DNA from: Candidatus Dormiibacterota bacterium
GTDB lineage: Bacteria > Chloroflexota > Dormibacteria > CF-121
Assembly: GCA_035544955.1 (NCBI GenBank)
Contig: DASZZN010000014.1
Span: 196,811-260,810, forward strand
DNA length: 64,000 nt
Direction: 5' to 3'
The notes under the pieces are model-generated. The model was not told the origin of the DNA. It saw only the letters and a list, made by a program, of their open reading frames with translations, and made no database searches. A program made the position numbers and the translations under genes. Position 1 is the stretch's first letter, and every line of letters begins with the position of its first letter. Positions 4,210 through 49,763 of the stretch are shown one piece after another.

Positions 4210-5958
4210 CTTTGGATGATCGTCGCTCGGCGCTAGCAAGCCGTCTTCCTCCATCAGGCCACGGATATGAGCGGCGATTCTTCGCGCAAGGGCGGGAGGT
4301 ACTGCGTTAGCGACCTGAAGCGGCTGCGTTGAGCGCGGCCCGCAGAAGACATAGGTATCCGGGAAACCCTGGATGCGGGCGGCTTCACGGACGGAGATAG
4401 TGCGGTTGAGAACCGGGTGCACAGGAAACGCACGGTGTCCCGCAATCAGCGTCGGGGCGAGGTCAGTCCCCAGGCGACGGTACGAGATCGGACCCTTACC
4501 CGATCCCTTGATACGCGCGATTTTGGCGACGACGGCAGCGCTGTGCGCCATCGTGGAGGCATTAAGAAGGACAGTCCCATTGTCCTGGTGGGCGTATTCC
4601 GCAATCGTTCCCGATGGAAGCCAGGGCAGATCCTCGAGCGCCCTCATCAGCCGGCCCTCCACCGGTTGCACTACGGGCGCTGGAGGCGCTGGCGGAGGAG
4701 CGTCCTTAATATTGCGGCGACGACCGAGGAAAATAAACCGCTTCCTTACTTGAGCGACCCCGAAGTCTGCGGCATTCAGCAGATATTCCCCGGCTGCATA
4801 ATGACTTCTTCCAAGGGAAACCCTCACGCCGTGGAGGAAGCTGAAGCCTTGGACATTCTTCAGACCTGGCACGTTTTCGATGACGATATAGGCCGCATTC
4901 AGCTCCCGAGCGAGCCGAGATACATGCTTGAACAAGACGTTCTTGGGGTCGTTCGCTTGACGGGCGCCCGCGGCTGAATAGCCCTGGCATGGCGGCCCCG
5001 CAAGAAGGACAGCAGGTTCGCCAACGCCCGGTACGAGCCGCCTGACATCGAAAGCTTTAAGCCGCGTCACATCCGCCTCGACAACGGGCACGCCAGGGTG
5101 ATTGGCGCGGTACGTCTGGGCAGCATTGCGGTCCAGCTCAACCGCAAGAGCGATTTGGAAGCCTTCCTGGCGGCAACCAGTCCCAAAGCCACCTGCACCA
5201 GCGAAGAGCTCGACAGCGACCGGATGACGGTCATCCCGGCTTAGTACGCGCCCGGTCCGGCAGAACGAGACCAGCACACACCTATCGCACTTCGGCCTCT
5301 GGCTCGTACATATGGCTCGTCCGTGGTGGACCAGATTCATGTGGAGGCGTTTGCGTATGGCGGGCGTGATCGCGCTCTCGAGCGGGTCGTGGTCCGCCTT
5401 GCGGTTTCCGGTTGTCAATATGCCCAGCCGCTCGACGATTCTGTGCACGTGAGTGTCTACCGCGAACCGCTTTCGGTCGAGCGAATAGGATTGTATGCAG
5501 CGAGCGCTCTTGGGACCGATTCCTGGAAGCGCGTCTAGAAATCTTTCGGCAGCAGCGTCGGACATTGTTCGCAGGTGATCGAGCGTTAGATCTCTTGGTG
5601 GGCTTGCGTATGGCCCTATCTTGCGAGCTTCGTTGTCCGCGCGAACCGCCTCGAGGATCCCGACCAGCTCCCGGGTTCTCGCCCGGTGGAAACCGCCGGG
5701 ACGAAGAAGTTCCCTGAGGTCGGTCGGCCTAGCCGAAAGGACATCCATCCATCTCGGGTAGCGGGCGCGGAGCTTTCTGAACAGCTTCTGATAACAGTCT
5801 TCGCGTGTTTGCCGGCTAAGCAAAATGTAGACCGTCTCGGCAAGCGGGTCTGTGAGATTGCCCAGATCAGCTGACCTGTATGTCACCTCGAGAAGCTCGT
5901 CGATGCGTTCAAGCGTTTGGGCCTGGGTTAGCTCTACCATCGGGCTCTTCCGCCTCAT
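4075..5958 (-). CDS. Fusion protein: N-terminal HhH-GPD (endonuclease III/Mig-like, [4Fe-4S]) DNA glycosylase + C-terminal DNA (cytosine-5) methyltransferase
   Basis: HhH motif LPGIGPKSARCI, catalytic Asp in FAVDTHVHRIV, and a C-x6-C-x2-C-x5-C cluster loop (CTSQRPKCDRCVLVSFC). C5-MTase motifs follow: I (FAGAGGFG), IV (GPPCQGYS), VI (IENVPGL) and X (QVANAVPP). The ORF runs to 6030, but the ATG at 5958 overlaps the upstream gene's TGA (ATGA), so I take the start as 5958. Confidence 0.85.
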   Translation of the reverse strand: MRRKSPMVELTQAQTLERIDELLEVTYRSADLGNLTDPLAETVYILLSRQTREDCYQKLFRKLRARYPRWMDVLSARPTDLRELLRPGGFHRARTRELVGILEAVRADNEARKIGPYASPPRDLTLDHLRTMSDAAAERFLDALPGIGPKSARCIQSYSLDRKRFAVDTHVHRIVERLGILTTGNRKADHDPLESAITPAIRKRLHMNLVHHGRAICTSQRPKCDRCVLVSFCRTGRVLSRDDRHPVAVELFAGAGGFGTGCRQEGFQIALAVELDRNAAQTYRANHPGVPVVEADVTRLKAFDVRRLVPGVGEPAVLLAGPPCQGYSAAGARQANDPKNVLFKHVSRLARELNAAYIVIENVPGLKNVQGFSFLHGVRVSLGRSHYAAGEYLLNAADFGVAQVRKRFIFLGRRRNIKDAPPPAPPAPVVQPVEGRLMRALEDLPWLPSGTIAEYAHQDNGTVLLNASTMAHSAAVVAKIARIKGSGKGPISYRRLGTDLAPTLIAGHRAFPVHPVLNRTISVREAARIQGFPDTYVFCGPRSTQPLQVANAVPPALARRIAAHIRGLMEEDGLLAPSDDHPKLQRRPAVAPPAVDRGSNVLRPHEKSLKPVPPTSMFEDEVALVSQ

Positions 5959-6155
5959 CCCTGCGACCCCGGGTGCGGCGACCTTAGGCGCGCCCACGTG
6001 AGAACATCGGCCTTTCGATAGCGGTAGCACCCGCCAACCTTAGTAAAGGGAAGGCCGCTCGCCTTTCTGAGACGCCACAAGGTGGTGCGGGACGCCTTCA
6101 GGAACTTCCGGAGCTCAGCGTCGGTCAAGAGCTCGTCCGATTCTAGATCACGCAT
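5955..6155 (-). CDS. AlpA/Xis-like small HTH DNA-binding protein (prophage regulatory/excisionase family)
   Basis: 66-aa protein with LLTDAELRKFLKASRTTLWRLRKASGLPFTKVGGCYRYRKADVLTW, matching the AlpA-type HTH. Its stop overlaps the MTase start codon (ATGA). Confidence 0.7.
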   Translation of the reverse strand: MRDLESDELLTDAELRKFLKASRTTLWRLRKASGLPFTKVGGCYRYRKADVLTWARLRSPHPGSQG

Positions 6156-6225: not shown

Positions 6226-7371
6226 CTACATAAGGAATTCCGTCATGAGGCGGGCTGCTTCGCGCTGCATGTCTGGTGTGACGTGCGAGTAGACATCGAG
6301 GGTGATAGCAACGGTGGCATGGCCGAGCATCTCGGCGACGATCTTCGGGTGTATGCCGCGGCTGAGCATTAGCGTTGCGGCCGTGTGCCGAAGATCATGG
6401 AACCGGATCGTCGGCAACCCAGCCTTTCTAAGGAGCGGACGGAAGGCACGTCGCACGACCCACTCTGCCGACAGCGGTCGGCCGAGCTCATCACAGAAGA
6501 CGAGCGTCGTGTCCACCCAGGCCGGGCCGGCTTGCAGGTTTTCCGCAGCCTGAGCCGTTCGGTGTCGGCGAAGAGCCGCAACGGCTTGGTCGGTGAGCGC
6601 GATCTGGCGGCGCGAACGCGCGGTCTTGGGCTCGGTAATAGCGGGTCCGTTTGGCCCTGGCGCCAGCGTTGCCGTCACCCTCGCGGCCGCACGGTCGAGG
6701 TCGAGCTCTGGCCATCTGAGAGCGAGGAGCTCGCCTTGCCGCATGCCCGTAGTCGCGGCCAGGACCCATAGCGCTTCGAGGCGCTCGCCGACGGCAGCCT
6801 CGAAGAGGGCGGCAACGTTTTCGCCGGAAAGAGTCCGCATTTGCGGGCAGGCCATCTTTGGCGGGCGGACTAGACCGGCCGCGTTCCGCGGCACCAAACC
6901 CCAGCGGACCGCGTCCTCAAGTGCCCGATGCAGCACGGCCTGCGCGTGATGAACGGAGGTCGGGCTTGCGCCTCCAGTGAGCATCCGTTCCTGCATCGTC
7001 CGAATATGAAGCGGACCCAGGCGGACGAGCGGGATTCTGCCGATGGCGGGCACGATATGGACTCGGAGGTACTTCTCGTACCGGATCCACGTCGAGAACC
7101 GCAGGTGCGGACGCATGCCAGGCAGCCAGTTCCGCAGGAAACTGCCAGCCGTTTCACGCGTTGGTCGTTGGTGGAGGCCGTCTTCGCGGGCCTTGAGGCC
7201 GGCCATCAGGCGGCGGTGAACCTCAGGCCGCGACTTGCTCACGAAACGATGGCGGTGGCCATCGACCGTGTAGGCAATTTCCCAACGACCGTCCTTGCGC
7301 TCATAGAGGGTACCGTCGCCATTGGCGCCCTTCCTTTTCCGAGTGGTCTTTCGCGAACGTGTATCAATCAT
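6226..7371 (-). CDS. int: Tyrosine site-specific recombinase (phage-type integrase)
   Basis: C-terminal catalytic signature IRFHDLRHTAATLMLSRG...LGHATVAITLDVYSHV (R/HxxR/Y box), an N-terminal SAM-like DNA-binding region, 381 aa. Confidence 0.9.
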   Translation of the reverse strand: MIDTRSRKTTRKRKGANGDGTLYERKDGRWEIAYTVDGHRHRFVSKSRPEVHRRLMAGLKAREDGLHQRPTRETAGSFLRNWLPGMRPHLRFSTWIRYEKYLRVHIVPAIGRIPLVRLGPLHIRTMQERMLTGGASPTSVHHAQAVLHRALEDAVRWGLVPRNAAGLVRPPKMACPQMRTLSGENVAALFEAAVGERLEALWVLAATTGMRQGELLALRWPELDLDRAAARVTATLAPGPNGPAITEPKTARSRRQIALTDQAVAALRRHRTAQAAENLQAGPAWVDTTLVFCDELGRPLSAEWVVRRAFRPLLRKAGLPTIRFHDLRHTAATLMLSRGIHPKIVAEMLGHATVAITLDVYSHVTPDMQREAARLMTEFLM

Positions 7372-7434: not shown

Positions 7435-7749
7435 TCAAGGGCGTTTCTTAGGCGTGTCCCAGGAGTCGTGCGCGATGCGGCGAGATTTATGTCGGCTGAG
7501 TCTCGACAGGCTTTCATCTGCGCCTTCAAGGTGCTGCCAGATCCAGTCCTGCAACGCCTCTCGTGGGACACGAACCGATCGACCGATCCGAACCACGGGC
7601 AGCTCGCCGGTTCTTACCAGGGCGCACACCTTGGTCCGACCAAGCCCAAGCGTCGTCGCCACCTCGGTGATTCGTAATAGCAGCGGTTCCATCTTCTCGA
7701 CGTCGCTCGCTACCGACAGGTCCTCAGCCGAAGGCGTTTGGTCCCTCAT
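7435..7749 (-). CDS. xis: Excisionase-family/MerR-like HTH DNA-binding protein
   Basis: 104 aa with LLRITEVATTLGLGRTKVCALVRTGELPVVRIGRSVRVPREALQDWI (excisionase-type HTH). It sits immediately upstream of int on the same strand. Its start overlaps the stop of the upstream ORF by 4 nt. Confidence 0.7.
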   Translation of the reverse strand: MRDQTPSAEDLSVASDVEKMEPLLLRITEVATTLGLGRTKVCALVRTGELPVVRIGRSVRVPREALQDWIWQHLEGADESLSRLSRHKSRRIAHDSWDTPKKRP

Positions 7750-8102
7750 TGCTTCGACGCTTCAGCCCACAGGGGAAGGGAGACGAAGCCAATCCGGTCA
7801 AGGGATCGGATGAAGGTCTGGTCCGAGGCAACGTTGATGGTGGCGCCATCGCGGTCAGCGATCGAGAGCGCGTCCCCGCTGGCGCCGGCGAGGAGCTTGA
7901 CATCGTCCGCGAGGCGAAGGCGGGTGATCAGCCGGTCTTCCGCACTTCCTTGCTCGTGGCCCGGATCATCCAGGAGAGCCGCAACGAGGCCGCGGAAGCT
8001 GTCCGCCTCGCAACCCCGGAGGAAAACGCCGTCTCCGACCGGATGGAAGAGCATGCGAAGCGGCAGCTCTTGCTGGTCGGCCGGATGGATGGGCCGGTAC
8101 AT
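7746..8102 (-). CDS. Hypothetical 118-aa protein, distal gene of the ligase operon
   Basis: ORF begins 2 nt after the amidoligase stop and overlaps the xis start by 4 nt. No recognisable motif. Confidence 0.35.
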   Translation of the reverse strand: MYRPIHPADQQELPLRMLFHPVGDGVFLRGCEADSFRGLVAALLDDPGHEQGSAEDRLITRLRLADDVKLLAGASGDALSIADRDGATINVASDQTFIRSLDRIGFVSLPLWAEASKQ

Positions 8103-8103
8103 G

Positions 8104-9390
8104 TCAGGCGGCTGCCCCTCGGCGCGTCCGTTGCCAGGCTGACCGCTGGTAGACCCAATAGAGCTTTAACTTGTCCTGCGGCCGGACGAAGATCAGGTCG
8201 GCAAAGCGGCGCAGCAAGCGATCGCCGTCGTCGGGATCGCGTGGGCTGCGGTGACTCCCGAGCGTATGTCGCTCCGGCGGGATGGCCGCGTCGGGCAGCT
8301 CGGCTGCGCGCTTGGTCACCCAGCAGGCCAGCTTGATGTTGGCCTGCAGGCGAACGGGGTCGAGGCTCGAGTCAAAGTACCGATACTCGATCGTCCGATT
8401 GCGGTCCAGGATGTTGCCGAAGTTCAAGCCAACCGAATGGCTGCTACCGACTCGGTTGGCAAGATCGCTGAGGCCCTGGACCTCTTCGAACTGGCCGGAG
8501 CCCATGGGACCACACCAGCGGTAGCCATTGGTACTGCCGCGGTGGCTGCGTCCCCGCTGACCCGTCGCGGCAGCTAGACGGTACATGAGATCCTCCGCCC
8601 AGGCGCACACCTTCGCGACGCGTCGGAATTTGTTCACGTCGTGGTCCATGCCGGCGGAGTCGACCCCCACGTGGACATGCCCACCGGTTCGGCCGGTCGC
8701 TCTCGCTCCGTGCGCTTGCAGGATCTGGCAGACGCGTTCCAGCTGGGCCCACGCCTCGGGGGTGTCCTGGAGGACCGGGCTTACGACCTCGCCCGAAACG
8801 GTGGCGTCGTGCTCAAGCGTCCATTTGCCGGCTACGCGGCTGCTCGAGTGGTATGGCTCCTGGCGAGCGCTCGACGTGAGCCCCGCTTCGTGCAGTGCCC
8901 GAGCGACGGCATTGGGGTCGGCACCGTCGAACTCGATCTCGATACCGAAGGTCTGGTTGGGGTCGCCGATGACGTTCTCGCGCTCATAGCTGGCTGCTTG
9001 TCCGGTCATGGCCAGCCGTTTGAGCTCTCGATGCAGGGCCTCATTGGCCACCAGCGATCGCTCGCCTTCGGGCACCTCCTGTCCCTGAATCCGGAGGAAT
9101 TCGTCCCAGAGCCGCTGGGCCTGCTGCTGCTCTCGGTCCGTGCGCTCCCGCTGCTCCTGATATCTGGCAACCGCTCGGCTGTAGAGCTCGGCCCACTCGG
9201 GCGTGCCGACTGGCGGGTCATCGTCAACGATCGGGGTGGAGGCGACGACCGCCACCGCTGCTCCAAGAACCTCTGGGGCCTGGGCGATAGCGAGAGCGGG
9301 ACCGCCCCGGCCGGATGCTTGGACGGAGACGGCACCATCAGCGACGGCAATCGTGCCGTGCGACGCTCGACTTCCACCCTTGCTCGGCAT
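8104..9390 (-). CDS. Amidoligase (Amidoligase_2 / GCS2-like carboxylate-amine ligase family)
   Basis: Motifs TFGIEIEFDG, TLEHDATVSGEVVSPVL and TGGHVHVGVD match the glutamine-synthetase-like amidoligase/YbdK signature (GxExE ... EivSP ... HvHvg). The start codon directly abuts the stop of the ATP-grasp gene (9391). N-terminal peptide MPSKGGSRAS. Confidence 0.65.
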   Translation of the reverse strand: MPSKGGSRASHGTIAVADGAVSVQASGRGGPALAIAQAPEVLGAAVAVVASTPIVDDDPPVGTPEWAELYSRAVARYQEQRERTDREQQQAQRLWDEFLRIQGQEVPEGERSLVANEALHRELKRLAMTGQAASYERENVIGDPNQTFGIEIEFDGADPNAVARALHEAGLTSSARQEPYHSSSRVAGKWTLEHDATVSGEVVSPVLQDTPEAWAQLERVCQILQAHGARATGRTGGHVHVGVDSAGMDHDVNKFRRVAKVCAWAEDLMYRLAAATGQRGRSHRGSTNGYRWCGPMGSGQFEEVQGLSDLANRVGSSHSVGLNFGNILDRNRTIEYRYFDSSLDPVRLQANIKLACWVTKRAAELPDAAIPPERHTLGSHRSPRDPDDGDRLLRRFADLIFVRPQDKLKLYWVYQRSAWQRTRRGAAA

Positions 9391-10764
9391 CTACCCGGCA
9401 CGAGCCAGCCGTCCGCGCAGCGTCTGTTGGATATGCGCATAAACACTCTTGACCGTTTCCGCCGACATGCCCGGCGCAGCGTTTGCCTCTAGGCAATACA
9501 CCCGGTCGGTCTGCAGGTCCTCGATCACGTCCACGCCCGCGTAATCGAGGCCGACGCGGCGAGCGCCTTCGCGTGCCACGGCCGCGACAGAGCGCGGGAT
9601 GACCTGCGACCGTTCGAAGCTCCACTCCGGCCGCAGATCGTCGGGGGTAGCACCTTCCGGAGGTCGCTTCAGGTAGGCGGAGACAATCCGGCCGGAGAGC
9701 ACCGACACTCGATACTCGCGGCGATCGGGGATGAACTCCTGGAAGCAGTCGTAGCCAGCGCGCTCGGCCTGCGGCCCATCGGCCGGGAGCAGCGCCTTCC
9801 CGCTGCCCCGTGACCCGTGCCGACGCTTGCCGACGACGTGGTTCGAGCCAAGCAACGCGAGGTCTCCCGGATTAACGACGGTCCGCGGCGCGAGCTCGCG
9901 CAAACGCCCCAGCGACTCCACCTGGTCGGAGGCAACCCGGACGGCCTCCGGCTGGTTGAGCGCGACGGCCTCTTGAGGCAGCGGCTGAACAGATCCCCAG
10001 TTGAGGATCAACGCAGGGGAGCCTCCCGGAGGAACTTCCCTGGCGTCTCGAACAATCCGAATCTGGGCGCCCTGCGACGCAACGGCTTCGATGTTGTGTG
10101 CCATAGCCTCGGAAGGGATCGAGGATGGGACCAGGACACACACCGGTACGTCATCCCGGGACGGAGCAAAGGCAATCTCCCGGATTCGCACGCTTCCTGA
10201 TGGTTGATTGGGCGGTGCCTCTGCGCCGGCGACCAAGCCGTGCGGTCGTTGGCTCGCGATTGCGAGCAGGCGCGTCATCGCTTGCTCCTCGGCGGATGGT
10301 TCAACCGCGTATCCTGCCGACAATCCAGCCTCCCGCCGCGCGGCTTCGAAGGTGCGCAGTTCCTGGCGGCGTTGGCGGAAGTCGTCGAGCGCCTGCCGGA
10401 GTGATTCCTCGTCCCCGCTACCAGCGATTCGCTCCAGTTTCCGCAGGCGGGCCAGCACCCGGCGGAGGCGATACCGGTAAAGCTCGTCCGATTCTTCCGG
10501 GCTGAGGCTCCCCTGGCGAGCGGAGAGCTCGTTGAATCGGTCGACCTCCGGACCTCGCCGCAGTCCACGTGCCAGCTCGGCAGCGTCGAAGGCGGGCGCG
10601 AGGAGATCTATAGCCTCCGGCGTCCCGGAGCTCATCGGTTCCGCCGTGTCGGAGGGAATCGAGGAGACGTGCGGTTGAGCAATCTCGTCAAGACCGGGGA
10701 GCGACACGGAGAGCGGTCCCGCGCCGCCGCCGCCCGACGCCCTGCTCCCGCGCTTAGATGGCAT
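9391..10764 (-). CDS. ATP-grasp family ligase (RimK/glutathione-synthetase-like C-terminal domain) with ~200-aa N-terminal region of unknown function
   Basis: C-terminal motifs VVGKRRHGSRGSGKAL, GYDCFQEFIPDRREYRVSVL and VYCLEANAAPGMS (the E-x-N ATP-grasp signature). The ORF extends to 10809, but I prefer the internal start at 10764 (MPSKRGSRAS...), which mirrors the amidoligase N-terminus and overlaps the upstream gene by only 11 nt. Confidence 0.7.
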   Translation of the reverse strand: MPSKRGSRASGGGGAGPLSVSLPGLDEIAQPHVSSIPSDTAEPMSSGTPEAIDLLAPAFDAAELARGLRRGPEVDRFNELSARQGSLSPEESDELYRYRLRRVLARLRKLERIAGSGDEESLRQALDDFRQRRQELRTFEAARREAGLSAGYAVEPSAEEQAMTRLLAIASQRPHGLVAGAEAPPNQPSGSVRIREIAFAPSRDDVPVCVLVPSSIPSEAMAHNIEAVASQGAQIRIVRDAREVPPGGSPALILNWGSVQPLPQEAVALNQPEAVRVASDQVESLGRLRELAPRTVVNPGDLALLGSNHVVGKRRHGSRGSGKALLPADGPQAERAGYDCFQEFIPDRREYRVSVLSGRIVSAYLKRPPEGATPDDLRPEWSFERSQVIPRSVAAVAREGARRVGLDYAGVDVIEDLQTDRVYCLEANAAPGMSAETVKSVYAHIQQTLRGRLARAG

Positions 10765-11941
10765 CTGCAAGCCTGTCTTCGTCGAGGAGTGCGCCGTAGG
10801 TGCGGTCATTGTGGGCGCAATTCAGCAGGAAGCAATTGCGAGCCGAGCGAGCGACGGCCGTCCCGTGTTCCGTTCCCAGGAGACGTCGTCGCTGGGCGAG
10901 CGCGTAGGCCATGCCATTGCAGATCACCAGGCGCCGGCCGGGAGCCGCGCGTCGGTAGGCGGCCAACCGATCCGGCGCATGGACGCCCCCAAGGAGGAAG
11001 GTGACATCGTGCCGCACCGCCTGGTGAAAGAGCGCAATGTCTTCCAGCGTCTCGCGCAGCGCCCGCTCACTGGCGTGGACTTTGCGGCCGTCGCAGAAGA
11101 GCGAGACGGCCGTCAAGGACGGCTGGCTGTTGACCCAGTCAGCCCACAGCTGGCCGTCGGGCTCGAACCGGCTCCAGCCGATGTCAGCGATGGCGGGCAG
11201 CCCAGCCTCGATCAGCTCGTGGAAGAAGATGAACGAGCGGCGTTGCTGAATGAGCTGCTCAAAGCGCGAGTGGTCGTACCAGACGGAGAAGTTCGGCGCC
11301 AGGATCAGGTCGAAACCGAGTCCTCGGAGTTCCTGGATGACCGAGCGGCGATTCAACCAGAGCCCCTCAAGCACGCGATCTTCCACAAAGCACTCCAGTG
11401 CGACCTTCGTGGCGGGGCCCAGCCGGTACACCTCTCGAAGAGGCCGATGGTGCTTGGGCGTGATCCGACTTCCTGTAACCCCGAACACCCGGCCTGCATG
11501 AAGGGCCACCCACGGAATATCCACCGGGTCGGCGTATGCCTGGATCAGCACGGGGAGATGGACAGGCAGGTCCACGGGTTGGTGATGGACGATCGGGCGC
11601 CGCCACGTGAGGTCGAGGCCGCCCAGTTGATTGCTAACGGCTTGGCGGACATCCATACGAAGAAGGGGATTGGTCAGGCAGAGGGCGCACCGATCGTTGC
11701 CGGTGGGGCCATCGCGATGTCCGACCCGGCAGAAGTTGGGTGTCTTTCCGCATCGAGCAGCGGCCGGACAGAGATCACAATTCAGGCCGCAGGCTGAAGC
11801 CACCTCAGGACTCCTCCTCGAAGGCGCTGATGGCCTGCCGGAGGTCAACGAGGACATTGACGACGCCCTGGCATTCGCTCGGCGATAGGCGGCGTCGAAT
11901 ATTGGCGAGCGTCCGGGCGAGTTGGCGGCAGAGGTCGACAA
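10754..11941 (-). CDS. Cys-rich protein of unknown function (N-terminal 7-Cys cluster including CxxxCxxC; possible Fe-S/Zn-binding enzyme)
   Basis: 395-aa ORF co-directional and overlapping with the ATP-grasp gene. It contains ACGLNCDLCPAAARCGKTPNFCRVGHRDGPTGNDRCALC and a second Cys/His patch near the C-terminus (VICNGMAYA...NCFLLNCAHN). The first ~45 aa are low-complexity, so the true start may be the internal MSSLTSG. Confidence 0.5.
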   Translation of the reverse strand: MSTSAANSPGRSPIFDAAYRRANARASSMSSLTSGRPSAPSRRSPEVASACGLNCDLCPAAARCGKTPNFCRVGHRDGPTGNDRCALCLTNPLLRMDVRQAVSNQLGGLDLTWRRPIVHHQPVDLPVHLPVLIQAYADPVDIPWVALHAGRVFGVTGSRITPKHHRPLREVYRLGPATKVALECFVEDRVLEGLWLNRRSVIQELRGLGFDLILAPNFSVWYDHSRFEQLIQQRRSFIFFHELIEAGLPAIADIGWSRFEPDGQLWADWVNSQPSLTAVSLFCDGRKVHASERALRETLEDIALFHQAVRHDVTFLLGGVHAPDRLAAYRRAAPGRRLVICNGMAYALAQRRRLLGTEHGTAVARSARNCFLLNCAHNDRTYGALLDEDRLADAI

Positions 11942-12768
11942 CGATCCCGAGCTGAACCTCGAAGGCGAGCCGGTCTTCCGCCGGCCCAGCGGTGCCGCCC
12001 TCGGCGGTGAGGGCTGCCTCCACCGTTAGGTGCCGATCCTGTCGAAGGCGGTCCACCGCCGCGTGGACTTGGTTGTGGGTGAGGCGGCCAGGTCGGTAAA
12101 CCAGGGCCGCCTGTCGCTCCGGATCATCCAGGCGGGCGATCTGGATTGCGTGCTCAGCCGGCAGGTGGCGCACCCCATCCTGAAGGTGGGGGTCCAGGCG
12201 CAGGATCCTGACCTTGTCCTTGCGCGCCGTCTCCGAAATCCGTAGCGCCCTCTCGGTGTCGCGCCAGCGGGCAAGCGGTTTCGGGACCAGCCCGCCTTCG
12301 AACTTCATCAGGTGAACGTTCTGGGCGATCAGCAGTTGCTTGAGGCCGTCAAGGTGTTCGGTGAAGCCGCCCCGAGTCGTGATGTGCCTCTCGTCTAAGG
12401 GCTGGAAGGGGACAATCGCGTCCCGGAGGAGTTGCTCGGCGACCGTGATGTCGCGGAGTGTCTTGTCCAGCAGAATGCAGTGGGCCTCCTCCACGGGATC
12501 GAGGTCGGAGCGAAGCTGGTTCTCCTCGTACTGTTTCTCGAGGCGCTCGAGGTAGCGCAGCCGAGGATGAAGGCGGGCCAGGACCTGGCTGATGCCCGCC
12601 GCCCGCGCCGCCCGCCACCGCTGCTCGCCGCACACGATCTCGATATCGGCCCGGCGTTCCTGCCGCCGGCTCGACCTCCAGCAGCGGCTGATGGCGCCCC
12701 GCCTTCATCGAGGCCGCGAGCTTGTCGACCAGGTCCATCGACCGTGCCCCTCCTTCGGTTGGGTCCAC
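11805..12768 (-). pseudogene. ParB/Srx-like nuclease-domain protein, disrupted by a frameshift (or sequencing error) near 12640-12650
   Basis: The upstream frame (ORF 12349..12768) gives MDLVDKLAASMKAGRHQPLLEVEPAAGTPGRY, the ParB N-terminal box. The downstream frame (ORF 11805..12635) continues as (D)IEIVCGEQRWRAARAAGI, the GxRRxRAA ParB motif. The two frames join if a single C is removed in ...GRY|EIVCGEQ.... Confidence 0.6.
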
Positions 12769-12847: not shown

Positions 12848-13699
12848 TCATTCTCTGCTTGATGGCTGGGAGTCGCCACTCTCCCTCAAAAACTGCGAAA
12901 GTGTGGCACCGAGTTCCTGCTCGCCCCGCCGGCCTAAGCCGGTCGGCCGCACAAGCGGCAGATTCCACCCCATTACCCAGACGGCCTTGGCTCGTTGTCG
13001 AGAGATAGAAGCCCACCAGGTAAGGCGACCAAGCCTCGATTCCGCAACCTGCATCGCTCCGAGGATGCGACCTACCTCAACGTAAACGCCTCGGCCGTTG
13101 CAAAGAAGTGCGGTCGCTGGAAGCGCGGCCACCTGCCACCGAAAGAATTCGGTGTCTGTTGCCCAGAGGGCTGCCGCCTCGGCCGGCCAAGTGCGACCTA
13201 GCTCCGACCACGTTGGGAAGGTCGCCTCCTGGATCAGGTCTAGGTGAACCGCCATTCCAGTGGCGTACGAGATGCCCATCCCGTCAAGCACGTTATTCAT
13301 GTGACCGAACCACCGACCAAAGGTGGGTCGGCCGGGGTCGAAGTAATGCCTCATCGTTTCGATTGCTCGTTCGCACTGTAGATCGCTGAGAGTGTCGCGG
13401 CCAACTGCACCCAGCGAAGTTAGCGTTTCGAAACGTCGGACATTGGAGCCATCGAGCTCAATTAGTCGAGCGCTGTCAGATCGACCGGCGTGTCGTGCGT
13501 ATTCGCGGTACGAAGGGTTGATGGCCACAGTCGCTGTGATGGCCCGGTCTGGATCGCCGAAGAAGAGAACGGGAAGCGACCTGGGCACCGAGTGTGGCGA
13601 TGGAGCTGCTCGCAAGCGCTGGTTGAGGTTCCGCTTCTGCGAAACCGTAAAGGCCTCCGATGGGCGGGCGCGGCTCGTATCACACTCTGCCATAGACAT
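12848..13699 (-). CDS. Hypothetical protein (283 aa)
   Basis: Long minus-strand ORF in the same co-directional array. Protein-like composition, no motif recognised. Confidence 0.4.
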   Translation of the reverse strand: MSMAECDTSRARPSEAFTVSQKRNLNQRLRAAPSPHSVPRSLPVLFFGDPDRAITATVAINPSYREYARHAGRSDSARLIELDGSNVRRFETLTSLGAVGRDTLSDLQCERAIETMRHYFDPGRPTFGRWFGHMNNVLDGMGISYATGMAVHLDLIQEATFPTWSELGRTWPAEAAALWATDTEFFRWQVAALPATALLCNGRGVYVEVGRILGAMQVAESRLGRLTWWASISRQRAKAVWVMGWNLPLVRPTGLGRRGEQELGATLSQFLRESGDSQPSSRE

Positions 13700-13708
13700 C
13701 GGTCGGGT

Positions 13709-14422
13709 TCATGAATTCTTCTTGGGCGAGGACCCTACGCTGCCGAGTCGCGGGTTAGTGGGAAGGCCCTGGGCCTTGGCTTCCCGGTAGTAACCGCGGC
13801 TCTCTGCCTCCATCCATATAAGAACTTCAAGGATCCTTACCGGCGTGACGACGTATCCGCCCTTCACCAGATCATCTCTCAGGGCCTTTATCTCGGTCAG
13901 GTTTGCCCGGAGATCCTCTCGGAAAGCACGCCATGCGGGCATCGTTGCCTGGGCGGCTTTCGTCTTGTCCTGAAGTCTGCCTTGGGTTGACTTCAAGTGG
14001 AGCGCATCGAGATAGAAGAGCACCACCACTGAGTCGAGCATCGGGATATAGTTCCGCCTCTTGCGATGTAGCACTTTTGTTGCTACGGCAGACAGCACGC
14101 CGGGTACCGAGATGGCTGCGCTCAGAAGCGACTCGCCAACTTCTAAATCCGGGTCGAATATCAGGATGTCGGCGTCTACCGGGATTCGCGGGAGTAGCGG
14201 ATCGCAAGCAGCGGCCATCCCACGGTGAACCTTCTGGACCTTTTCTCCAGTAGCCACTCGAGAGTTCATAGAGACTGTCACAAGGATGTCGAGAGGTTCA
14301 ATGCGGTTCGGATCATTCGTTGGGATTGCATCGTAGTACGCGTACTCATTCGGAAAGAAGCGCAAAAGGCGATCCCTGCAGTTCGACAGACTGGGCCCGC
14401 TAGGCAGCTGCAGGTTCATCAA
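13709..14422 (-). CDS. Hypothetical protein (237 aa)
   Basis: Lower-GC ORF directly upstream of 12848..13699 on the same strand. No recognisable motif. Confidence 0.4.
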   Translation of the reverse strand: MMNLQLPSGPSLSNCRDRLLRFFPNEYAYYDAIPTNDPNRIEPLDILVTVSMNSRVATGEKVQKVHRGMAAACDPLLPRIPVDADILIFDPDLEVGESLLSAAISVPGVLSAVATKVLHRKRRNYIPMLDSVVVLFYLDALHLKSTQGRLQDKTKAAQATMPAWRAFREDLRANLTEIKALRDDLVKGGYVVTPVRILEVLIWMEAESRGYYREAKAQGLPTNPRLGSVGSSPKKNS

Positions 14423-14472
14423 ACGGAGAACATTCCGTTCCGAGTCCCTACCATTCCGTAGCGCGGGTCCGA

Positions 14473-14904
14473 TCAGGCATCATCGGTGCGTAGATATAGG
14501 AGTGACCCTGAGGTCCTGAACAGCCCGAGTATTGGGCTAGGGGCACCCGCCAGCTTCGTCAGGCATGGCAAATTCAGGCCTACGAATTGCTGCTCGGACG
14601 ACATACAGCTGTCAAAGACCGAGCGTATGCTTGCCTCCGTCCAGGATTTGAAATTTAGGGTAGGTAGGTGATGAAACTGGATTCGGAAGTCTGCCGGTGC
14701 TTTGCGGGCGGGTTGTTTCCGCCGATTAGAGTCGGTTTTCGCTCGATCGGGCAAGGCTACCGCAGCGAGGACGATTATCGCGAGTTCGATCATGAAGGTC
14801 ATCGAGGGTGGTGCATCACTAAGCATGAAGGTCATTGCAACCCTGAGCATATTCCTATACGCGAAATCGACTAAGCCTAGGAGGAACACCCAAGATGCAG
14901 ACAT
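14473..14904 (-). CDS. Hypothetical small protein (143 aa), possibly membrane-associated
   Basis: ORF in an AT-richer segment with a hydrophobic stretch (MIELAIIVLAAVALP). Weak support. Confidence 0.25.
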   Translation of the reverse strand: MSASWVFLLGLVDFAYRNMLRVAMTFMLSDAPPSMTFMIELAIIVLAAVALPDRAKTDSNRRKQPARKAPADFRIQFHHLPTLNFKSWTEASIRSVFDSCMSSEQQFVGLNLPCLTKLAGAPSPILGLFRTSGSLLYLRTDDA

Positions 14905-15305
14905 TTGAGGGTGCGCTAATCCGAGAGCAAGGCGTGGCGTTCGGGGTCGTCGTCTGCCGACGAGGCCTCCCGAACAGAGACAAGACGGTGCTTATGGAAA
15001 GCGTAAGTCGCATCTTTGGCCGCGTACCGGTCGTAGCCATGGAGCAGGATCACCGGGGCGTGCCGACATACTATGGGCGCACTGACTTGGTTCGTTTCTT
15101 GGCCTCGGTTCCGATGGAAGCCATTCCTTGGAAGAAATACACGATCACCTAGGGGCGTCCTTTTCATGATCGACGATCCGTTGGAAACCCGGGTGCTCAC
15201 CAAGAAGCTTCGACAGACGGCACTTGCTGCCGGCGTCCTTCGGAGCCGCTCGGGGAGCGACCAAGCGGCGCATTAACGAGATTCCAGCTACGATTCCCAC
15301 GTAAA

Positions 15306-16238
15306 GTGGCGGTCCCCGATTTTCAGTCCATCATGCTTCCCTTCCTCCAGTCGCTGGCAGATGGTCAACAACAGCGAACGCGGGAGCTAATGCCTCGGCT
15401 TGCGTCGCAGTTTCACCTCTCAGATACGGACCTTCGGCAGCTGCTGCCAAGCGGCACGCAGCGTGTCTTCGAGAACCGCGTCTACTGGGTGAGCAGCTAT
15501 CTAAGGCACGCAGGGCTGATCGAGAGCCCGCAACGCGGGGTTGTCCGGATCACGGAAAATGGGCGCAAGGTCCTAGCTAATCCCCCGGATCGCATCACCG
15601 TCGGATATCTGATGCGACTTCCCAGCTTCCAACCATTCGGAAGCCAAACGACCGCGGCAGGCGGCTTAGGTATAGGACACGTGCCCCCCGCCGTCAAGGC
15701 TTCAGATAGAACACCTGAGGAAGATCTCGAAGCGACCTGGCTCACGATTCGCGACGCGCTGGGTCAGGATCTCCTGGGAAGGATCAAGACTTGCTCTCCC
15801 AGTTTTTTCGAACGCCTCGTGGTTGACCTGCTGGTCACGATGGGGTACGGCGGATCTGTCGTCGATGCAGGCCAGAGCGTCGGCATGTCCGGCGACGGTG
15901 GAGTGGACGGAATCATTAAAGAGGACAAACTCGGTCTTGACGTTGTCTACATTCAGGCCAAGCGCTGGGAGGGGCAGGTCGGTCGGCCAGTGGTACAGGC
16001 CTTCGCGGGGAGCCTTGAGGGATTCCGAGCCCGGAAAGGCGTACCGATTACGACCTCGGGATTCTCAGCCGACGCCCGAACCTACGCGAACCAGATCGAG
16101 AAAAGAATCGTGCTCATCGATGGGACCAACCTCGTCCGGCTGATGATGGAGCACGGCGTGGGCGTTACCAGGGCGAAAACCTACGACGTCCAAAGGATTG
16201 ACCTTGATTACTTCGACGAAGAGGCATTATCCGGTTAG
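15306..16238 (+). CDS. mrr: Mrr-family type IV (modification-dependent) restriction endonuclease
   Basis: N-terminal Mrr_N winged helix (MAVPDFQSIMLPFLQS...LRHAGLIESPQRGVVRITENGRKVL). Mrr_cat motif GMSGDGGVDGIIKEDKLGLDVVYIQAKRW (GDGGxDG ... D ... QxK). GTG start. Confidence 0.9.
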   Translation: MAVPDFQSIMLPFLQSLADGQQQRTRELMPRLASQFHLSDTDLRQLLPSGTQRVFENRVYWVSSYLRHAGLIESPQRGVVRITENGRKVLANPPDRITVGYLMRLPSFQPFGSQTTAAGGLGIGHVPPAVKASDRTPEEDLEATWLTIRDALGQDLLGRIKTCSPSFFERLVVDLLVTMGYGGSVVDAGQSVGMSGDGGVDGIIKEDKLGLDVVYIQAKRWEGQVGRPVVQAFAGSLEGFRARKGVPITTSGFSADARTYANQIEKRIVLIDGTNLVRLMMEHGVGVTRAKTYDVQRIDLDYFDEEALSG

Positions 16239-16485
16239 CAGGGCAAGCACCCAGAACTCGAACCTAGGAAAACCTGATCTACTGATGGCTGATCGGAAGT
16301 GGGGCCTGCGGTCTCGGAAGGGAGAGATCTAAGTCTTGAAGAAGCGTTCTGGTACGCCTACGAAACGCGTCGTCTTCATGGTTTGCCCGTGCAAGGCGGA
16401 GTCGCCGGCAGCATCTAAGTAGTCACGTGCCGGTGCTTATCGATTCGTCTATTTCCCTCGGCTTATCCGCGAATCAATTCCGGGA

Positions 16486-17341
16486 TCAGTTCTCGTTCAA
16501 CCCGAATTTGCGACTCAACAGCTTTTTCTTCCAAGCAGCTTCGGCTTGGAGGATATCCTCGTCGTCTGAAGTCAGAGCTTGCAAGACGCTGAATTGGTAA
16601 GGTCGAGGCCCGAGTCGCCTCAATTCCACGTTGTTTCCATGTCCAGTCCGCGCGTAATGCATAAGTCGTCCCCAAAGATTCTCCGTCCCAGTTGCCGACC
16701 CAACGTATTGTCGTCCCCTTTCTGTATCGACCAACAGGTACACCCCTCTAACAGCCTGGAGGATCGGCTGCCAGTTTGGTGGAACCAGATCTGCCTCTGC
16801 GACTAGCCATGAGAAAGCACCAAAGCCAGGCCACGGTTCGTCGGCCGCTTCCTGCCTCCGGATCTCGAGTACTCGTTTTCTGATTGCGATGTGCGCGTTG
16901 CGCCCATTGGCGGTATCCAGCTCCCCATTCGACAATAAGCTTGCCCGCGTAGTCCGCAAGCCGATTGTCACGTGAGATGTCGTAGTAGTACAGACCTGCG
17001 ACGGAATGACCGCCGATAGGGTCGAGAATCTCCTCGGGGACCCTCCCGATAGCTACCACCGAGTAAAGGCCGATGTAGAGGGTCTCATCCCGAGGAGTTA
17101 CGACGAAACTTGCCAGCGTGTCACCTGGAGAAAAACGCTTCTGGCCCTGGATGCGCTGGTATTCCTCAAGCCGCGGATCACGCCTTCTCCACAAGCCATA
17201 AGGTGTCGGAGCACCGGGCCGGCTACGCACTTGGTGCCGCACAAGAACACCCCAGAGGGGTCGATCCTTTCGATGGCGAGGATGTCGTTGAAAGTCAACA
17301 TAGTCCCTTCCGGAAGTGTCGCTGGATTCATGGTATGGCAC
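16486..17341 (-). pseudogene. GIY-YIG nuclease-domain protein split over two overlapping frames (probable frameshift near 16880-16910)
   Basis: The C-terminal frame has GVYLLVDTERGRQYVGSATGTENLWGRLMHY...GHGNN (GIY-YIG core). The N-terminal frame (16748..17341) overlaps it by 224 nt and reads smoothly into it (…YRQWAQRAH / IAIRKRVLEIRRQ…). Confidence 0.55.
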
Positions 17342-17369
17342 CCGGAGTGGTTCCCCATACCGATAATGG

Positions 17370-18062: not shown

Positions 18063-18243
18063 CCCGCGGGTGCCCTGATCGACCCGGGATCCTGATGTCG
18101 GCTGTCTGGGTCCTGGGGCCTCATCGCCTCATGCCCAAACCGGGGTCTTGAGAGGAGGTCTTCAACCAAAACCATAGCCAGCCTCGCGATTGCAATGAGC
18201 TCTGCTACTCCAACTCGCACGTTAAACTTGAGACCAGGGGGGA

Positions 18244-21527: not shown

Positions 21528-21712
21528 GGTACCCTGCCACCTGAGGAATCCGGTTTGACAGCAACGCTGGCGAACTTTGGCGAACCCCGGCGAACGCCAA
21601 CGAACTGTTGACCCCGTCACTCAACTACAAGATGAACGCTGGCGAATCGCGGCGAATGCTGGCGGACGATGCGCCCGCAGGTCAGCCGCTGATGGCACGG
21701 ACCCCGAGGCTG

Positions 21713-22753: not shown

Positions 22754-22825
22754 GCTGACTGCCGGACGCCTTCAGCTCCAAACCGTAATCCGATCCTCTT
22801 GCCGTCGTTGGAAGCGGATGGGCGT

Positions 22826-25192: not shown

Positions 25193-25276
25193 CGCGGGCG
25201 ACCCGTTTACTGGTCATTTCGAGCTCCTTTCGCTTCGTCGTGCCGACCGCATCGGCGGCTATGTTAAAGGGCAGCG

Positions 25277-27346: not shown

Positions 27347-27627
27347 CTGCTTTCCATTCTTACCAAAAGATGCGTGTGCGAAAGAACGTAACTCCGCCTC
27401 GCCGTACCCTCTTACTTGAAAGGCGAGCTCCCGCGAAGCGGATGTAGGTGTTAGCGATATATGCTCCCGGCTGGAGCGCTTCCTTGAGCGCGCGATCGTA
27501 GTGTTTCTCGGCGTTCGAAAACTTGGCCTGCTGCCAATCCTTTCGGCCCGATTCCACGCTCGTCTCGAAAATGAAGTTGCTGAAGGCCATGCCCCGCCTC
27601 AGCGCGGAGTCTAGCAGTCGGACGCTT

Positions 27628-49751: not shown

Positions 49752-49763
49752 AACTATTCTAAC

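What the first reader, a model, noticed from the sequence alone, without database searches (positions are those of the whole stretch)
10754..11941. Cys-rich 395-aa protein with CxxxCxxC plus four further Cys in 40 residues
ACGLNCDLCPAAARCGKTPNFCRVGHRDGPTGNDRCALC contains the radical-SAM-type CxxxCxxC spacing and additional Cys pairs. A second Cys/His patch lies near the C-terminus. The protein is translationally linked to the two ligases. It could be the enzyme that creates or recognises the substrate, as a radical SAM, Fe-S or Zn ribbon protein, but I cannot assign a family.
Basis: partly seen in the sequence, partly recalled or inferred. Interest (0 to 1): 0.55.

Follow-up and report, generated by a model that had tools for sequence, protein, structure and literature searches.

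The report
Cys-rich TGT-fold DUF4417 protein
The Cys-rich ORF is a real, conserved protein, 349 aa rather than 395 aa and not a radical-SAM enzyme: a metal-binding Cys module sits on a TIM barrel shaped like the enzymes that swap bases in tRNA and DNA, it is almost always paired with an amidoligase on conjugative elements, plasmids and phages, and it probably belongs to an uncharacterised DNA-modification module.

Summary
The ORF exists on the minus strand. Its real start is GTG 11803, giving 349 aa; the first 46 codons of the "395-aa" ORF only overlap the upstream gene. Seven N-terminal Cys are conserved, but the C-terminal Cys/His patch is not. No radical-SAM, SPASM, ferredoxin or CXXC model matches. 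Across the superfamily the conserved motif is C-x2-C-x5-C, not C-x3-C-x2-C. The body is DUF4417. A confident AlphaFold model has tRNA-guanine transglycosylase as its top 50 PDB fold matches and phage "queuine tRNA-ribosyltransferases" as its best named viral matches. There is no sequence-level link to TGT, no TGT zinc site and no conserved β8 Asp. The gene sits in a translationally coupled cassette (ParB-like, DUF4417, ATP-grasp, Amidoligase_2, orf118) conserved on integrative conjugative elements. DUF4417 plus amidoligase recurs in 36 of 49 distant loci, on C. perfringens pCW3 and on Streptomyces plasmids. Phages fuse ParB_N to DUF4417. Best reading (confidence about 0.45): a ParB-assisted DNA base-modifying enzyme analogous to DpdB/DpdA, whose product the ligases decorate. 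The window copy is an element remnant with a broken ParB gene.

The parts
10754..11803 (-). True CDS of the target: 349-aa Cys-rich DUF4417 protein (GTG start at 11803, TAA stop at 10756-10754)
   Evidence: Homologue lengths and coverage; SD GAGGAGGAG plus TGAgGTG junction; DUF4417 match in 26/26 close relatives; dN/dS 0.21 against L001
11657..11803 (-). N-terminal Cys-rich metal-binding module (aa 1-49): C5-x3-C9-x2-C12-x5-C18-x6-C25-x13-C39-x2-C42
   Evidence: Cys conservation 85-94 of 94; C9, C12 and C18 (near-)invariant across the superfamily; dN/dS 0.28; low AF2 confidence without metal
10754..11656 (-). TIM-barrel body (aa 50-349, DUF4417). Putative active-site residues D142, E146, W149, S173, R180, D216 and G273, near strand C-termini
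   Evidence: AF2 model pLDDT 82.7, pTM 0.85, with eight beta-alpha units; top 50 PDB fold hits are all TGT; superfamily invariants; the same motifs in phage ParB-DUF4417 fusions
11804..11941 (-). Not part of the protein: the 5' extension of the '395-aa' ORF, which is the 3' end of the ParB-like gene read in another frame
   Evidence: No homologue covers it; upstream gene stop at 11807-11805
11805..12768 (-). ParB-like gene, disrupted. The N-terminal piece (12768-12640) and the main piece (12635-11805) are in different frames (1-nt insertion near 12636-12639), and the first ~45 residues seen in orthologues are missing. The GEQRWRAA (GxxRxxA) NTP-binding motif is retained
   Evidence: Reading of the sequence; alignment to the intact L002 orthologue; one continuous frame in relatives; weak ParB model hits; ParB_N Pfam on orthologues
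9391..10764 (-). RimK/MptN-like ATP-grasp ligase (probable start ATG 10764, MPSKRGSRAS...)
   Evidence: Pfam RimK, NCBIfam MptN and PHROG 2599; conserved start peptide across loci; synteny
8104..9390 (-). Amidoligase_2 (COOH-NH2 ligase), starting MPSKGGSRAS...
   Evidence: PF12224 E=1.3e-18; dN/dS 0.07; linked to DUF4417 in 36 of 49 distant loci and on plasmids
7746..8102 (-). orf118, a conserved small protein of unknown fold and the last gene of the cassette
   Evidence: 628 homologues with no Pfam; AF2 pLDDT 86.5; no PDB fold match; synteny
7435..7749 (-). Excisionase-like HTH ORF, with an ATGA overlap onto the orf118 stop
   Evidence: Junction; homologues at the same position in L001 and L007; an HTH_17 gene at the equivalent position in L028 and L084. 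Pfam was not run on the window copy
6226..7371 (-). Tyrosine integrase marking the end of the integrative element
   Evidence: Phage_integrase plus Phage_int_SAM_3; the same arrangement in L001, L007, L028 and L084

Best explanation
The protein is the catalytic TIM-barrel component of a DNA base-modification module carried by conjugative and integrative elements and by some phages.

Shown:
- It is a 349-aa protein with a conserved N-terminal Cys cluster (core C-x2-C-x5-C plus further Cys) on a DUF4417 (beta/alpha)8 barrel.
- The nearest known fold of that barrel is tRNA/DNA-guanine transglycosylase.
- It is encoded in a translationally coupled cassette: ParB-like, DUF4417, ATP-grasp, Amidoligase_2, orf118.
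- DUF4417 and amidoligase form a gene pair conserved over very large evolutionary distances.
- ParB_N is fused to DUF4417 in phages.
- Orphan DNA methylases are habitual neighbours.

Inferred:
- By analogy with DpdB/DpdA, and with ParB-activated phage thymine dioxygenases, the ParB-like NTPase loads on DNA, possibly in cis on the element, and presents or activates the DUF4417 enzyme.
- The Cys module binds Zn or a [4Fe-4S] cluster. It either contacts DNA or stabilises the barrel, and it occupies the N-terminal position that ParB_N takes in the phage fusions.
- The amidoligase, here assisted by a RimK-like ATP-grasp and elsewhere by GATase, further amidoligases or GGCT, builds an amino-acid or peptide-like side chain on that base, before or after insertion.
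- The biological role would be to protect element DNA from restriction in new hosts.

The window copy belongs to a degraded element. It has no conjugation genes and its ParB gene is broken, but the other four genes are still under purifying selection.
For: Fold: AF2 pLDDT 82.7 and pTM 0.85. The top 50 PDB Foldseek hits are all TGT (E about 1e-5, TM about 0.5). The best named BFVD hits are phage 'queuine tRNA-ribosyltransferases'.

Partner logic: DpdA needs the ParB-fold ATPase DpdB to exchange guanine in DNA (PMC10164549). A ParB homologue activates phage thymine dioxygenases (PMC13229309). ParB-CTPase-DUF4417 fusions are reported as frequent in phages (bioRxiv 10.1101/2025.10.10.680097), and I verified two.

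Linkage: the five-gene cassette is syntenic in Dormibacterota, Chloroflexota, Actinomycetes and other MAGs. The ICE backbone surrounds it in L028, L083, L084 and L085, with N6/N4 methylases interleaved. Among distant relatives, 36 of 49 loci have Amidoligase_2, nearly always directly downstream, and Dcm or N6/N4 methylase lies directly upstream in the loci where the upstream gene was scanned. pCW3 carries dcm, DUF4417 and a SWIM-amidoligase. Streptomyces pMDJK44.1 carries Replic_Relax, ParB_N, DUF4417, three amidoligases and GGCT.

Other support: amidoligase and GATase genes of unknown role recur in phage thymidine-hypermodification clusters (PMC8989533). Purifying selection: dN/dS 0.07-0.5. 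The invariant acidic, Ser and Arg residues lie just after predicted strands.
Against: - No sequence-level relationship to TGT or DpdA: hhalign probability 0.3%, and no Pfam TGT hit or significant PDB sequence hit.
- TM is only about 0.5, and TIM barrels are promiscuous fold matches. PDB is heavily redundant for one TGT, so '50 of 50' is effectively a few proteins.
- The TGT/DpdA zinc site is absent, and the residue after beta8, where the Asp nucleophile should sit, is not conserved.
- No 7-deazaguanine synthesis genes lie nearby.
- No modified base, DNA binding or metal has been demonstrated for any family member, and no paper in the held library studies the pair.
- PADLOC finds no match.
- Many distant loci showed no ParB homologue with my probes.
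- In this lineage ParB is broken or absent while the rest is kept.
Confidence: 0.45

Rival explanations
1. The DUF4417 barrel and the amidoligase(s) form a small-molecule pathway. They would make or destroy a nucleotide-, nucleoside- or peptide-derived metabolite that the mobile element uses in conflict with the host, for example to deplete or mimic a defence signal, without modifying DNA. ParB would be only an adjacent partition or regulatory gene.
For: TIM barrels are mostly small-molecule enzymes. Amidoligase plus GATase or GGCT neighbourhoods look like metabolite pathways. Many distant loci lack a detectable ParB. ParB is dispensable in the window/L001 lineage. A Nuc_deoxyrib_tr-like (weak) gene lies upstream in L028.
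Against: Physical ParB_N-DUF4417 fusions exist in phages. DNA methylases are habitual immediate neighbours. The pCW3 amidoligase carries a SWIM zinc finger. The nearest fold acts on nucleic-acid polymers.
Confidence: 0.2
2. This is a protein or peptide-tagging system. The RimK-like ATP-grasp and the amidoligase would add amino acids to a protein, such as orf118, ParB, each other's MPSKGG tails or a host target. DUF4417 would then be a metal-dependent scaffold or hydrolase for that reaction.
For: The closest ATP-grasp models are RimK and MptN, which are glutamate ligases acting on a protein and on a cofactor respectively. Both ligases share a conserved N-terminal MPSKGG[SR]R peptide. A small conserved protein, orf118, always follows.
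Against: The orf118 C-terminus is variable, unlike a RimK-type acceptor. orf118 and the ATP-grasp are absent from most distant DUF4417-amidoligase pairs. This reading does not explain the TGT-like barrel or the ParB fusions.
Confidence: 0.15
3. One reading: a radical-SAM enzyme whose C-x3-C-x2-C motif binds the SAM-cleaving [4Fe-4S] cluster.
For: The exact C-x3-C-x2-C spacing is present and conserved within the close clade. The body is a beta/alpha barrel.
Against: No radical-SAM, SPASM or Fer4 HMM hit even at E<=10. The spacing is present in only 15 of 50 superfamily representatives, and its first Cys is not conserved. A fourth near-invariant Cys follows at x5. The motif is N-terminal to the barrel rather than in the beta1-alpha1 loop. 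The top 50 PDB fold hits are all TGT, with no radical-SAM protein among them. Phage DUF4417 proteins lack the Cys module entirely.
Confidence: 0.03
4. An accessory factor for partition or maintenance of the element: a ParB-associated DNA-binding protein with no catalytic role.
For: Adjacency and fusion to ParB_N. A Cys-rich module with weak, non-significant resemblance to Zn DNA-binding modules, namely the PriA Cys-rich region and CXXC fingers.
Against: Invariant acidic, Ser and Arg residues just after predicted barrel strands point to catalysis. Tight coupling to ATP-dependent ligases. pCW3 is described as using a separate ParMRC partition system (PMC9426499 abstract).
Confidence: 0.05

Closest known systems
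DpdA/DpdB of the Dpd 7-deazaguanine DNA modification system (Salmonella Montevideo; PMC10164549)
   Same: A TGT-fold TIM-barrel enzyme encoded next to a ParB-fold NTPase with a GxxRxxA-type motif. Both sit on mobile or genomic islands in a restriction-modification context, and further enzymes elaborate the inserted base (DpdC there, ligases here).
   Different: No detectable sequence similarity. No CxCx2Cx22H zinc site, and an N-terminal Cys cluster instead. No conserved Asp at the beta8 nucleophile position. No preQ0 synthesis genes or DpdC-K helicase/nuclease genes. The partners are an amidoligase and an ATP-grasp.
Bacterial, archaeal and eukaryotic tRNA-guanine transglycosylases (TGT/QTRT1)
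   Same: Best structural match: Foldseek E about 1e-5, TM about 0.5 over about 340 columns.
   Different: 11-13% identity and hhalign probability 0.3%. The TGT motifs (DSGGFQ, the nucleophile Asp, the Zn site) are absent. The context is a mobile element, not queuosine biosynthesis.
Phage ParB_N-DUF4417 fusion proteins (e.g. Streptococcus phage Javan576 gp34, Brevibacterium phage Cantare gp77; PHROG 940)
   Same: The same DUF4417 barrel with the D-x3-E-x2-W, P-[ND]-[FY]-S and R motifs. The association with ParB is the same but realised as a fusion.
   Different: The fusions lack the Cys-rich module, and no amidoligase lies within the ~2.5 kb of annotated flank examined. They are annotated as 'nuclease', 'DNA modification methylase' or 'ParB-like' without experimental basis that I could find.
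Phage thymidine hypermodification clusters (5-HMUDK + AADT/aGPT-Pplase +/- amidoligase/GATase; PMC8989533) and ParB-dependent thymine dioxygenases (PMC13229309)
   Same: Multi-enzyme decoration of DNA bases with amino-acid-derived groups. Amidoligase and GATase genes co-occur, and a ParB homologue acts as activator of the base-modifying enzyme.
   Different: The base-acting enzymes there are an HhH-glycosylase-like AADT and a TET/JBP dioxygenase, not a TIM barrel. No kinase, dioxygenase or hydroxymethylase occurs in this cassette.
[4Fe-4S] cluster loop of EndoIII/MutY (C-x6-C-x2-C-x5-C) and WhiB-like proteins; alternatively CXXC-type two-zinc fingers (own knowledge of these motifs)
   Same: The C-x2-C-x5-C core spacing. 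The window's own Dcm-EndoIII fusion carries CTSQRPKCDRCVLVSFC. The 10-Cys subgroup pattern C-x3-C-x2-C-x5-C-x2-C-x2-C resembles the duplicated C-x2-C-x2-C of CXXC fingers.
   Different: No HMM of either kind matches. The spacing of the first and last Cys differs, and the metal has not been determined.

Membership tests
Radical SAM superfamily | A C-x3-C-x2-C motif in which all three Cys are conserved as ligands of the SAM-binding [4Fe-4S] cluster | tested here: not met
   The motif is present in the close clade but in only 15 of 50 full-length superfamily representatives. The first Cys is not conserved, whereas C-x2-C-x5-C is (33 of 50).
Radical SAM superfamily | Match to a Radical_SAM, Fer4_12/14 or SPASM profile | tested here: not met
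   No such Pfam or NCBIfam hit for the window protein or for 26 close and 8 distant relatives, even at E<=10.
Radical SAM superfamily | Cys motif in the loop after beta1 of a partial (beta/alpha)6 barrel; radical-SAM proteins as nearest folds | tested here: not met
   The motif spans residues 5-12, while the first barrel strand is at 82-86. The top 50 PDB fold hits are all TGT.
Radical SAM superfamily | SAM cleavage and a site-differentiated cluster | not testable with these tools
   Needs anaerobic purification, EPR and a 5'-deoxyadenosine assay.
DUF4417 (PF14386) | Match to the family HMM above the gathering score | tested here: inconclusive
   The window protein scores 25.9-26.2 bits against a cut-off of 28.9. 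All 26 close relatives match (best E 5.9e-9). Distant full-length relatives and pCW3 score 49-54 bits. A profile search links them at E down to 1e-45.
DUF4417 (PF14386) | Core motifs shared with bona fide members (D-x3-E-x2-W; P-[ND]-[FY]-S; downstream R) | tested here: met
   VEDRVLEGLW, PNFSVW and the conserved Arg R180 (SRFEQL) in the window protein. The same motifs occur in Javan576 gp34, which scores 237 bits to PF14386.
TGT/DpdA transglycosylases | (beta/alpha)8 TIM barrel most similar to TGT | tested here: met
TGT/DpdA transglycosylases | Sequence or profile similarity to TGT (PF01702) | tested here: not met
   hhalign A2 vs A3 gives probability 0.3%. No Pfam TGT hit and no TGT among PDB sequence hits.
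TGT/DpdA transglycosylases | Structural Zn site C-x-C-x2-C-x22-H near the C-terminus | tested here: not met
   No such motif. Of the C-terminal Cys/His only C324 is well conserved in the clade, and none is conserved in the superfamily.
TGT/DpdA transglycosylases | Three invariant Asp (general acid/base after beta3, base-recognition Asp, nucleophile after beta8) | tested here: inconclusive
   D142 is invariant and lies just after beta3. The position after beta4 is an invariant Ser (S173). The position after beta8 (N296) varies among N, D, T, S, H and G. No residue-level structural superposition was available.
TGT/DpdA transglycosylases | ParB-fold NTPase partner (DpdB-like) | tested here: met
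   An adjacent ParB_N gene in the ICE cassette and on the Streptomyces plasmid. Fused ParB_N in phages. The copy in the window is a pseudogene.
TGT/DpdA transglycosylases | Base-exchange activity on DNA or tRNA, with a 7-deazaguanine supply | not testable with these tools
   No Que or FolE genes appear in the Pfam-annotated contexts. Activity needs biochemistry.
CXXC-type zinc finger / ferredoxin-type Fe-S domain (for the N-terminal module) | Match to zf-CXXC or Fer4 profiles | tested here: not met
   No hit at E<=10. There are only non-significant PDB sequence matches to the PriA Cys-rich region and to CXXC fingers (E 2.6-6.9). The metal identity cannot be tested here.

The most novel reading that the evidence does not exclude
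Conjugative plasmids and ICEs, including the C. perfringens paradigm plasmid pCW3, carry a previously unrecognised DNA hypermodification pathway. A ParB-type clamp would target a metal-cluster-bearing, TGT-fold DUF4417 enzyme to the element's own DNA, and amidoligases or ATP-grasp ligases would build an amino-acid or peptide side chain on the exchanged or processed base. That would be a new base chemistry and, as far as I know, the first hypermodification system of plasmids rather than phages, possibly marking the element in cis.
Probability: 0.25. Interest if true: 0.85.

Novelty: new variant of a known kind. Interest (0 to 1): 0.6.

Why it matters
DUF4417 is a catalogued but functionless family. 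This analysis ties it to three things:
- a TGT-like fold;
- an obligate amidoligase partner;
- ParB, either as a neighbouring gene or as a fusion.

The module occurs on mobile elements ranging from soil Dormibacterota ICEs to human-gut Firmicute elements, Streptomyces plasmids and the medically relevant pCW3 family of toxin and resistance plasmids.

If the DNA-modification reading holds, it would extend complex base hypermodification from phages to conjugative elements, and add a new enzyme class for base exchange or base decoration. It could also bear on how such plasmids cope with restriction in new hosts.

The prediction is directly testable on pCW3, an established genetic model plasmid. 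There is also a practical annotation point: gene callers, including RefSeq for pCW3, often clip the Cys-rich N-terminus.

Tried and rejected
- Radical-SAM assignment: rejected (see the membership test).
- aGPT-Pplase/AADT relationship: I had recalled these as TGT-like, but the paper describes them as HhH-glycosylase-like, so the lead was dropped.
- Sequence bridge to TGT: I built a 7-member TGT alignment and ran hhalign against the DUF4417 superfamily. The probability was 0.3%, so catalytic residues could not be mapped by sequence.
- Phage DpdA sequences by tblastn with E. coli Tgt: this returned only bacterial-type TGTs.
- PDB sequence searches with the single protein and with two profiles: nothing significant.
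- PADLOC: no defence-system match for any cassette protein.
- orf118: the homologue search, AF2 model and PDB fold search gave no relative.
- Conjugation genes in the window: none found.
- tRNA attachment site: no tRNA genes in the window.
- Iyer et al. 2009 amidoligase paper: not held.
- Literature searches for DUF4417, pCW3 dcm region and amidoligase plus conjugation: no functional study found.


Full report
OBSERVATION.

The ORF at 10754..11941 exists, but on the minus strand. The + strand translation of the same coordinates is unrelated. The quoted Cys-rich peptide is present.

The 395-aa length is an artefact of taking the first possible start (TTG 11941). The upstream ParB-like gene ends with TGA at 11807-11805. 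One base later there is a GTG (11803), preceded by GAGGAGGAG. Among the 120 best of 197 homologues, lengths cluster at 335-350 aa, and none covers more than 88% of the long ORF. The protein is therefore 349 aa and starts (M)ASACGLNCDLC.

Homologues listed as 298-299 aa are start-codon miscalls. In L028 the in-frame upstream sequence after a stop codon reads VANACGLSCELCPAAPRCGGSSNFCLVGRCKGCESN. RefSeq makes the same kind of cut on plasmid pCW3.

The seven N-terminal Cys (5, 9, 12, 18, 25, 39, 42) are kept in 85-94 of 94 full-length close homologues. This segment evolves under purifying selection, with dN/dS 0.28 against L001.

The C-terminal Cys/His patch is not a conserved site. C324 is kept in 90/94, C329 in 72/94 and H331 in 30/94, and none of them is conserved in the wider family.

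Translational coupling to the ligases is real: there is an 11-nt overlap with the ATP-grasp start, then TAGATG, TGAcATG and ATGA junctions.

WHAT THE PROTEIN IS.

Pfam gives only DUF4417. The window protein itself scores 26 bits, below the 28.9-bit cut-off, but all 26 close relatives match. There is no radical-SAM, SPASM, ferredoxin, CXXC or TGT model hit even at E<=10.

An exhaustive profile search finds 989 representative clusters. In an alignment of 34 members at 20-27% identity, the invariant positions are C12, D142, S173 and G273. C9, C18, E146, W149, R180 and D216 are nearly invariant.

The conserved metal signature is therefore C-x2-C-x5-C. It is present in 33 of 50 full-length representatives, against 15 of 50 for the radical-SAM-like C-x3-C-x2-C. 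N-terminal Cys counts peak at 4 and at 8-10, which suggests one to several metal sites.

The C-x2-C-x5-C spacing is that of the EndoIII/MutY and WhiB-type [4Fe-4S] motifs (my own knowledge). The 10-Cys variants also resemble CXXC two-zinc fingers, with weak non-significant PDB sequence hits. The metal cannot be decided here.

The AlphaFold model is confident (pLDDT 82.7, pTM 0.85). It shows eight beta-alpha units from residue ~80, while the Cys module is poorly defined, as expected without metal.

Foldseek against the PDB returns tRNA-guanine transglycosylase for all 50 listed hits, with E about 1e-5 and TM about 0.5. Against viral models, the named top hits are phage queuine tRNA-ribosyltransferases.

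The link to TGT is at fold level only. A profile-profile comparison with a TGT alignment gives probability 0.3%. The TGT/DpdA zinc site is absent, and the residue after beta8, where the nucleophilic Asp should be, is variable. D142 lies just after beta3, the strand after which Asp95, the general acid/base of DpdA, appears to lie, judging from the insertion boundaries given in the paper (PMC10164549). That correspondence is an inference, because no structural superposition was available.

CONTEXT.

tblastn of the window's proteins against 20 genome loci shows a conserved order: ParB-like, DUF4417, ATP-grasp, Amidoligase_2, orf118. The loci come from Dormibacterota, Chloroflexota, Actinomycetes and other MAGs.

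Long contigs with precomputed Pfam place the cassette at the recombinase end of integrative conjugative elements. The usual order is VirB4/TraG-like ATPase, CHAP or SLT hydrolase, coupling protein, Replic_Relax, (AAA_16), ParB_N, (N6/N4 methylase), DUF4417, ATP-grasp, Amidoligase_2, orf118, (methylase), HTH_17, integrase or serine recombinase.

The association survives great divergence. For a subgroup about 26% identical to the window protein, 36 of 49 viral or metagenomic loci carry an Amidoligase_2 homologue, nearly always immediately downstream. Most exceptions are truncated contigs. Where the upstream gene was scanned, a Dcm or N6/N4 DNA methylase lies directly before DUF4417. TcpC, a DnaD-like initiator, TQ/SpaA adhesins, RecA or a beta clamp are nearby.

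In annotated plasmids, 65 C. perfringens records carry the pair; in the one inspected, pCW3, the order is dcm, small ORF, DUF4417, amidoligase, and that amidoligase has an N-terminal SWIM zinc finger. Thirty-one Streptomyces plasmid records also carry DUF4417. In the one inspected, pMDJK44.1, the order is Replic_Relax, ParB_N, DUF4417, three amidoligases and, further on, a gamma-glutamylcyclotransferase.

In phages, ParB_N and DUF4417 are fused in one polypeptide. These fusions lack the Cys module but keep the D-x3-E-x2-W, P-[ND]-[FY]-S and R motifs. This agrees with a preprint that lists DUF4417 among the commonest phage fusion partners of the ParB-CTPase fold.

THE WINDOW COPY.

The window contains no conjugation genes. 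The cassette plus excisionase and integrase lies in a defence and mobile island with Mrr, GIY-YIG, SIR2-like, SF1 helicase and a Dcm-EndoIII fusion.

Its ParB-like gene lacks about the first 45 residues and carries a 1-nt frameshift near 12636-12639. The 95%-identical Chloroflexota locus L001 has lost ParB altogether.

The other genes are still constrained. dN/dS is 0.21 for DUF4417, 0.07 for the amidoligase, 0.21 for orf118 and 0.51 for the ATP-grasp.

MECHANISM.

Two experimental precedents show ParB-fold proteins acting as obligatory partners of DNA base-modifying enzymes. DpdB works with the TGT-fold DpdA, which exchanges guanine for preQ0 in DNA. A ParB homologue works with phage thymine dioxygenases. 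Amidoligase and GATase genes of unknown role also recur in phage thymidine-hypermodification clusters.

Combining these precedents with the fold, the fusions, the methylase neighbours and the ICE location, I consider the following most likely (confidence about 0.45). The protein is a ParB-assisted DNA base-exchange or base-processing enzyme. Its Cys module binds Zn or Fe-S and contacts DNA or stabilises the barrel. Its product is decorated by the amidoligase and the ATP-grasp ligase, and the result serves anti-restriction for the element. All of this is inference.

Rival readings are a small-molecule pathway (0.2), protein or peptide tagging (0.15), a non-catalytic partition accessory (0.05) and radical SAM (0.03).

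Evidence against the main reading: there is no sequence link to TGT, TM-scores are modest, the TGT Zn site and nucleophile are missing, there are no deazaguanine genes, ParB was not detected in many distant loci, and there is no biochemistry for any family member.

NOVELTY AND VERDICT.

The family is catalogued as DUF4417 and its ParB fusions have been noted. I found no functional study of it, or of the DUF4417-amidoligase pair, in the held literature.

The closest characterised system is DpdA/DpdB, from which this one differs in sequence, metal site, catalytic residues and partner enzymes. I therefore rate it a new variant of a known kind.

Its radical-SAM interpretation is not supported, while its Fe-S/Zn alternative is plausible.

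Interest is 0.6. This is a widespread module with an accessible genetic model (pCW3) and a sharp, testable prediction, but the function remains inferred and this particular copy is part of a decaying element.

Noticed in passing
window 10764 and 9390 (minus strand starts); L001-L029, L079, L030, L084, L085: Both ligases begin with the same peptide (MPSKRGSRAS and MPSKGGSRAS). It is conserved as MPSKGG[SR]R at the start of ATP-grasp and amidoligase genes in the related loci examined. Distant amidoligases on pCW3 and in a viral contig start MPKRRS(N/S). Its function is unknown: it could be a docking tail, a self-modification site or an N-terminal Pro nucleophile.
   Followed up: partly
window 11805-12768 (-): The ParB-like gene is a pseudogene, 5'-truncated with a 1-nt frameshift. 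The near-identical locus L001 lacks it entirely, yet the downstream genes stay under purifying selection.
   Followed up: yes
window 4075-6030 (-): A 651-aa fusion of an EndoIII-like HhH-GPD glycosylase domain, including the Fe-S loop CTSQRPKCDRCVLVSFC, with a C5 cytosine DNA methyltransferase. It lies next to the integrase.
   Followed up: partly
window 7746-8102 (-): orf118 is a 600+-member family with an invariant CEAD motif. It has a confident AF2 model but no Pfam domain and no PDB fold relative.
   Followed up: yes
window 12848-30000: Defence-island content: DUF6308 (13709-14422), Mrr (15306-16238), GIY-YIG (16486-16971), a SIR2_2 protein (18244-20103) with a 474-aa unassigned ORF (20103-21527) starting at its stop codon, an SF1 helicase with AAA_11/12 (22826-25192) and DUF5677 (25277-26248).
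   Followed up: partly
L079 (pCW3 NC_010937.1) 6998-7040; L028 7880-8001: Gene callers, including RefSeq WP_236907236.1, start DUF4417 genes at an internal ATG and clip the first Cys residues. About a quarter of the listed metagenomic homologues are shortened in this way.
   Followed up: yes
window 45424-46491: A homologue (61% aa identity) of a gene that is inserted between ParB and DUF4417 in L028. It is probably an insertion sequence or transposase.
   Followed up: no
window 48001-50000: An isolated AT-skew spike (0.255) in the composition profile.
   Followed up: no
L002 3419-4072; L028 4426-5061: A ~211-217-aa gene between Replic_Relax and ParB (upstream of the AAA ATPase gene in L002). 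The L028 copy has a weak Nuc_deoxyrib_tr Pfam hit; I judged the L002 copy related by eye only. If it is a nucleotide N-glycosidase, it could supply a free base to a base-exchange enzyme. It is absent from the window.
   Followed up: no
L085 17671-20265; L028 15910-16897: The ICEs carrying the cassette are integrated next to other defence systems: a Patatin-SMODS CBASS with E2-CBASS in L085, and BubE plus ThiF/DUF6791 in L028.
   Followed up: no
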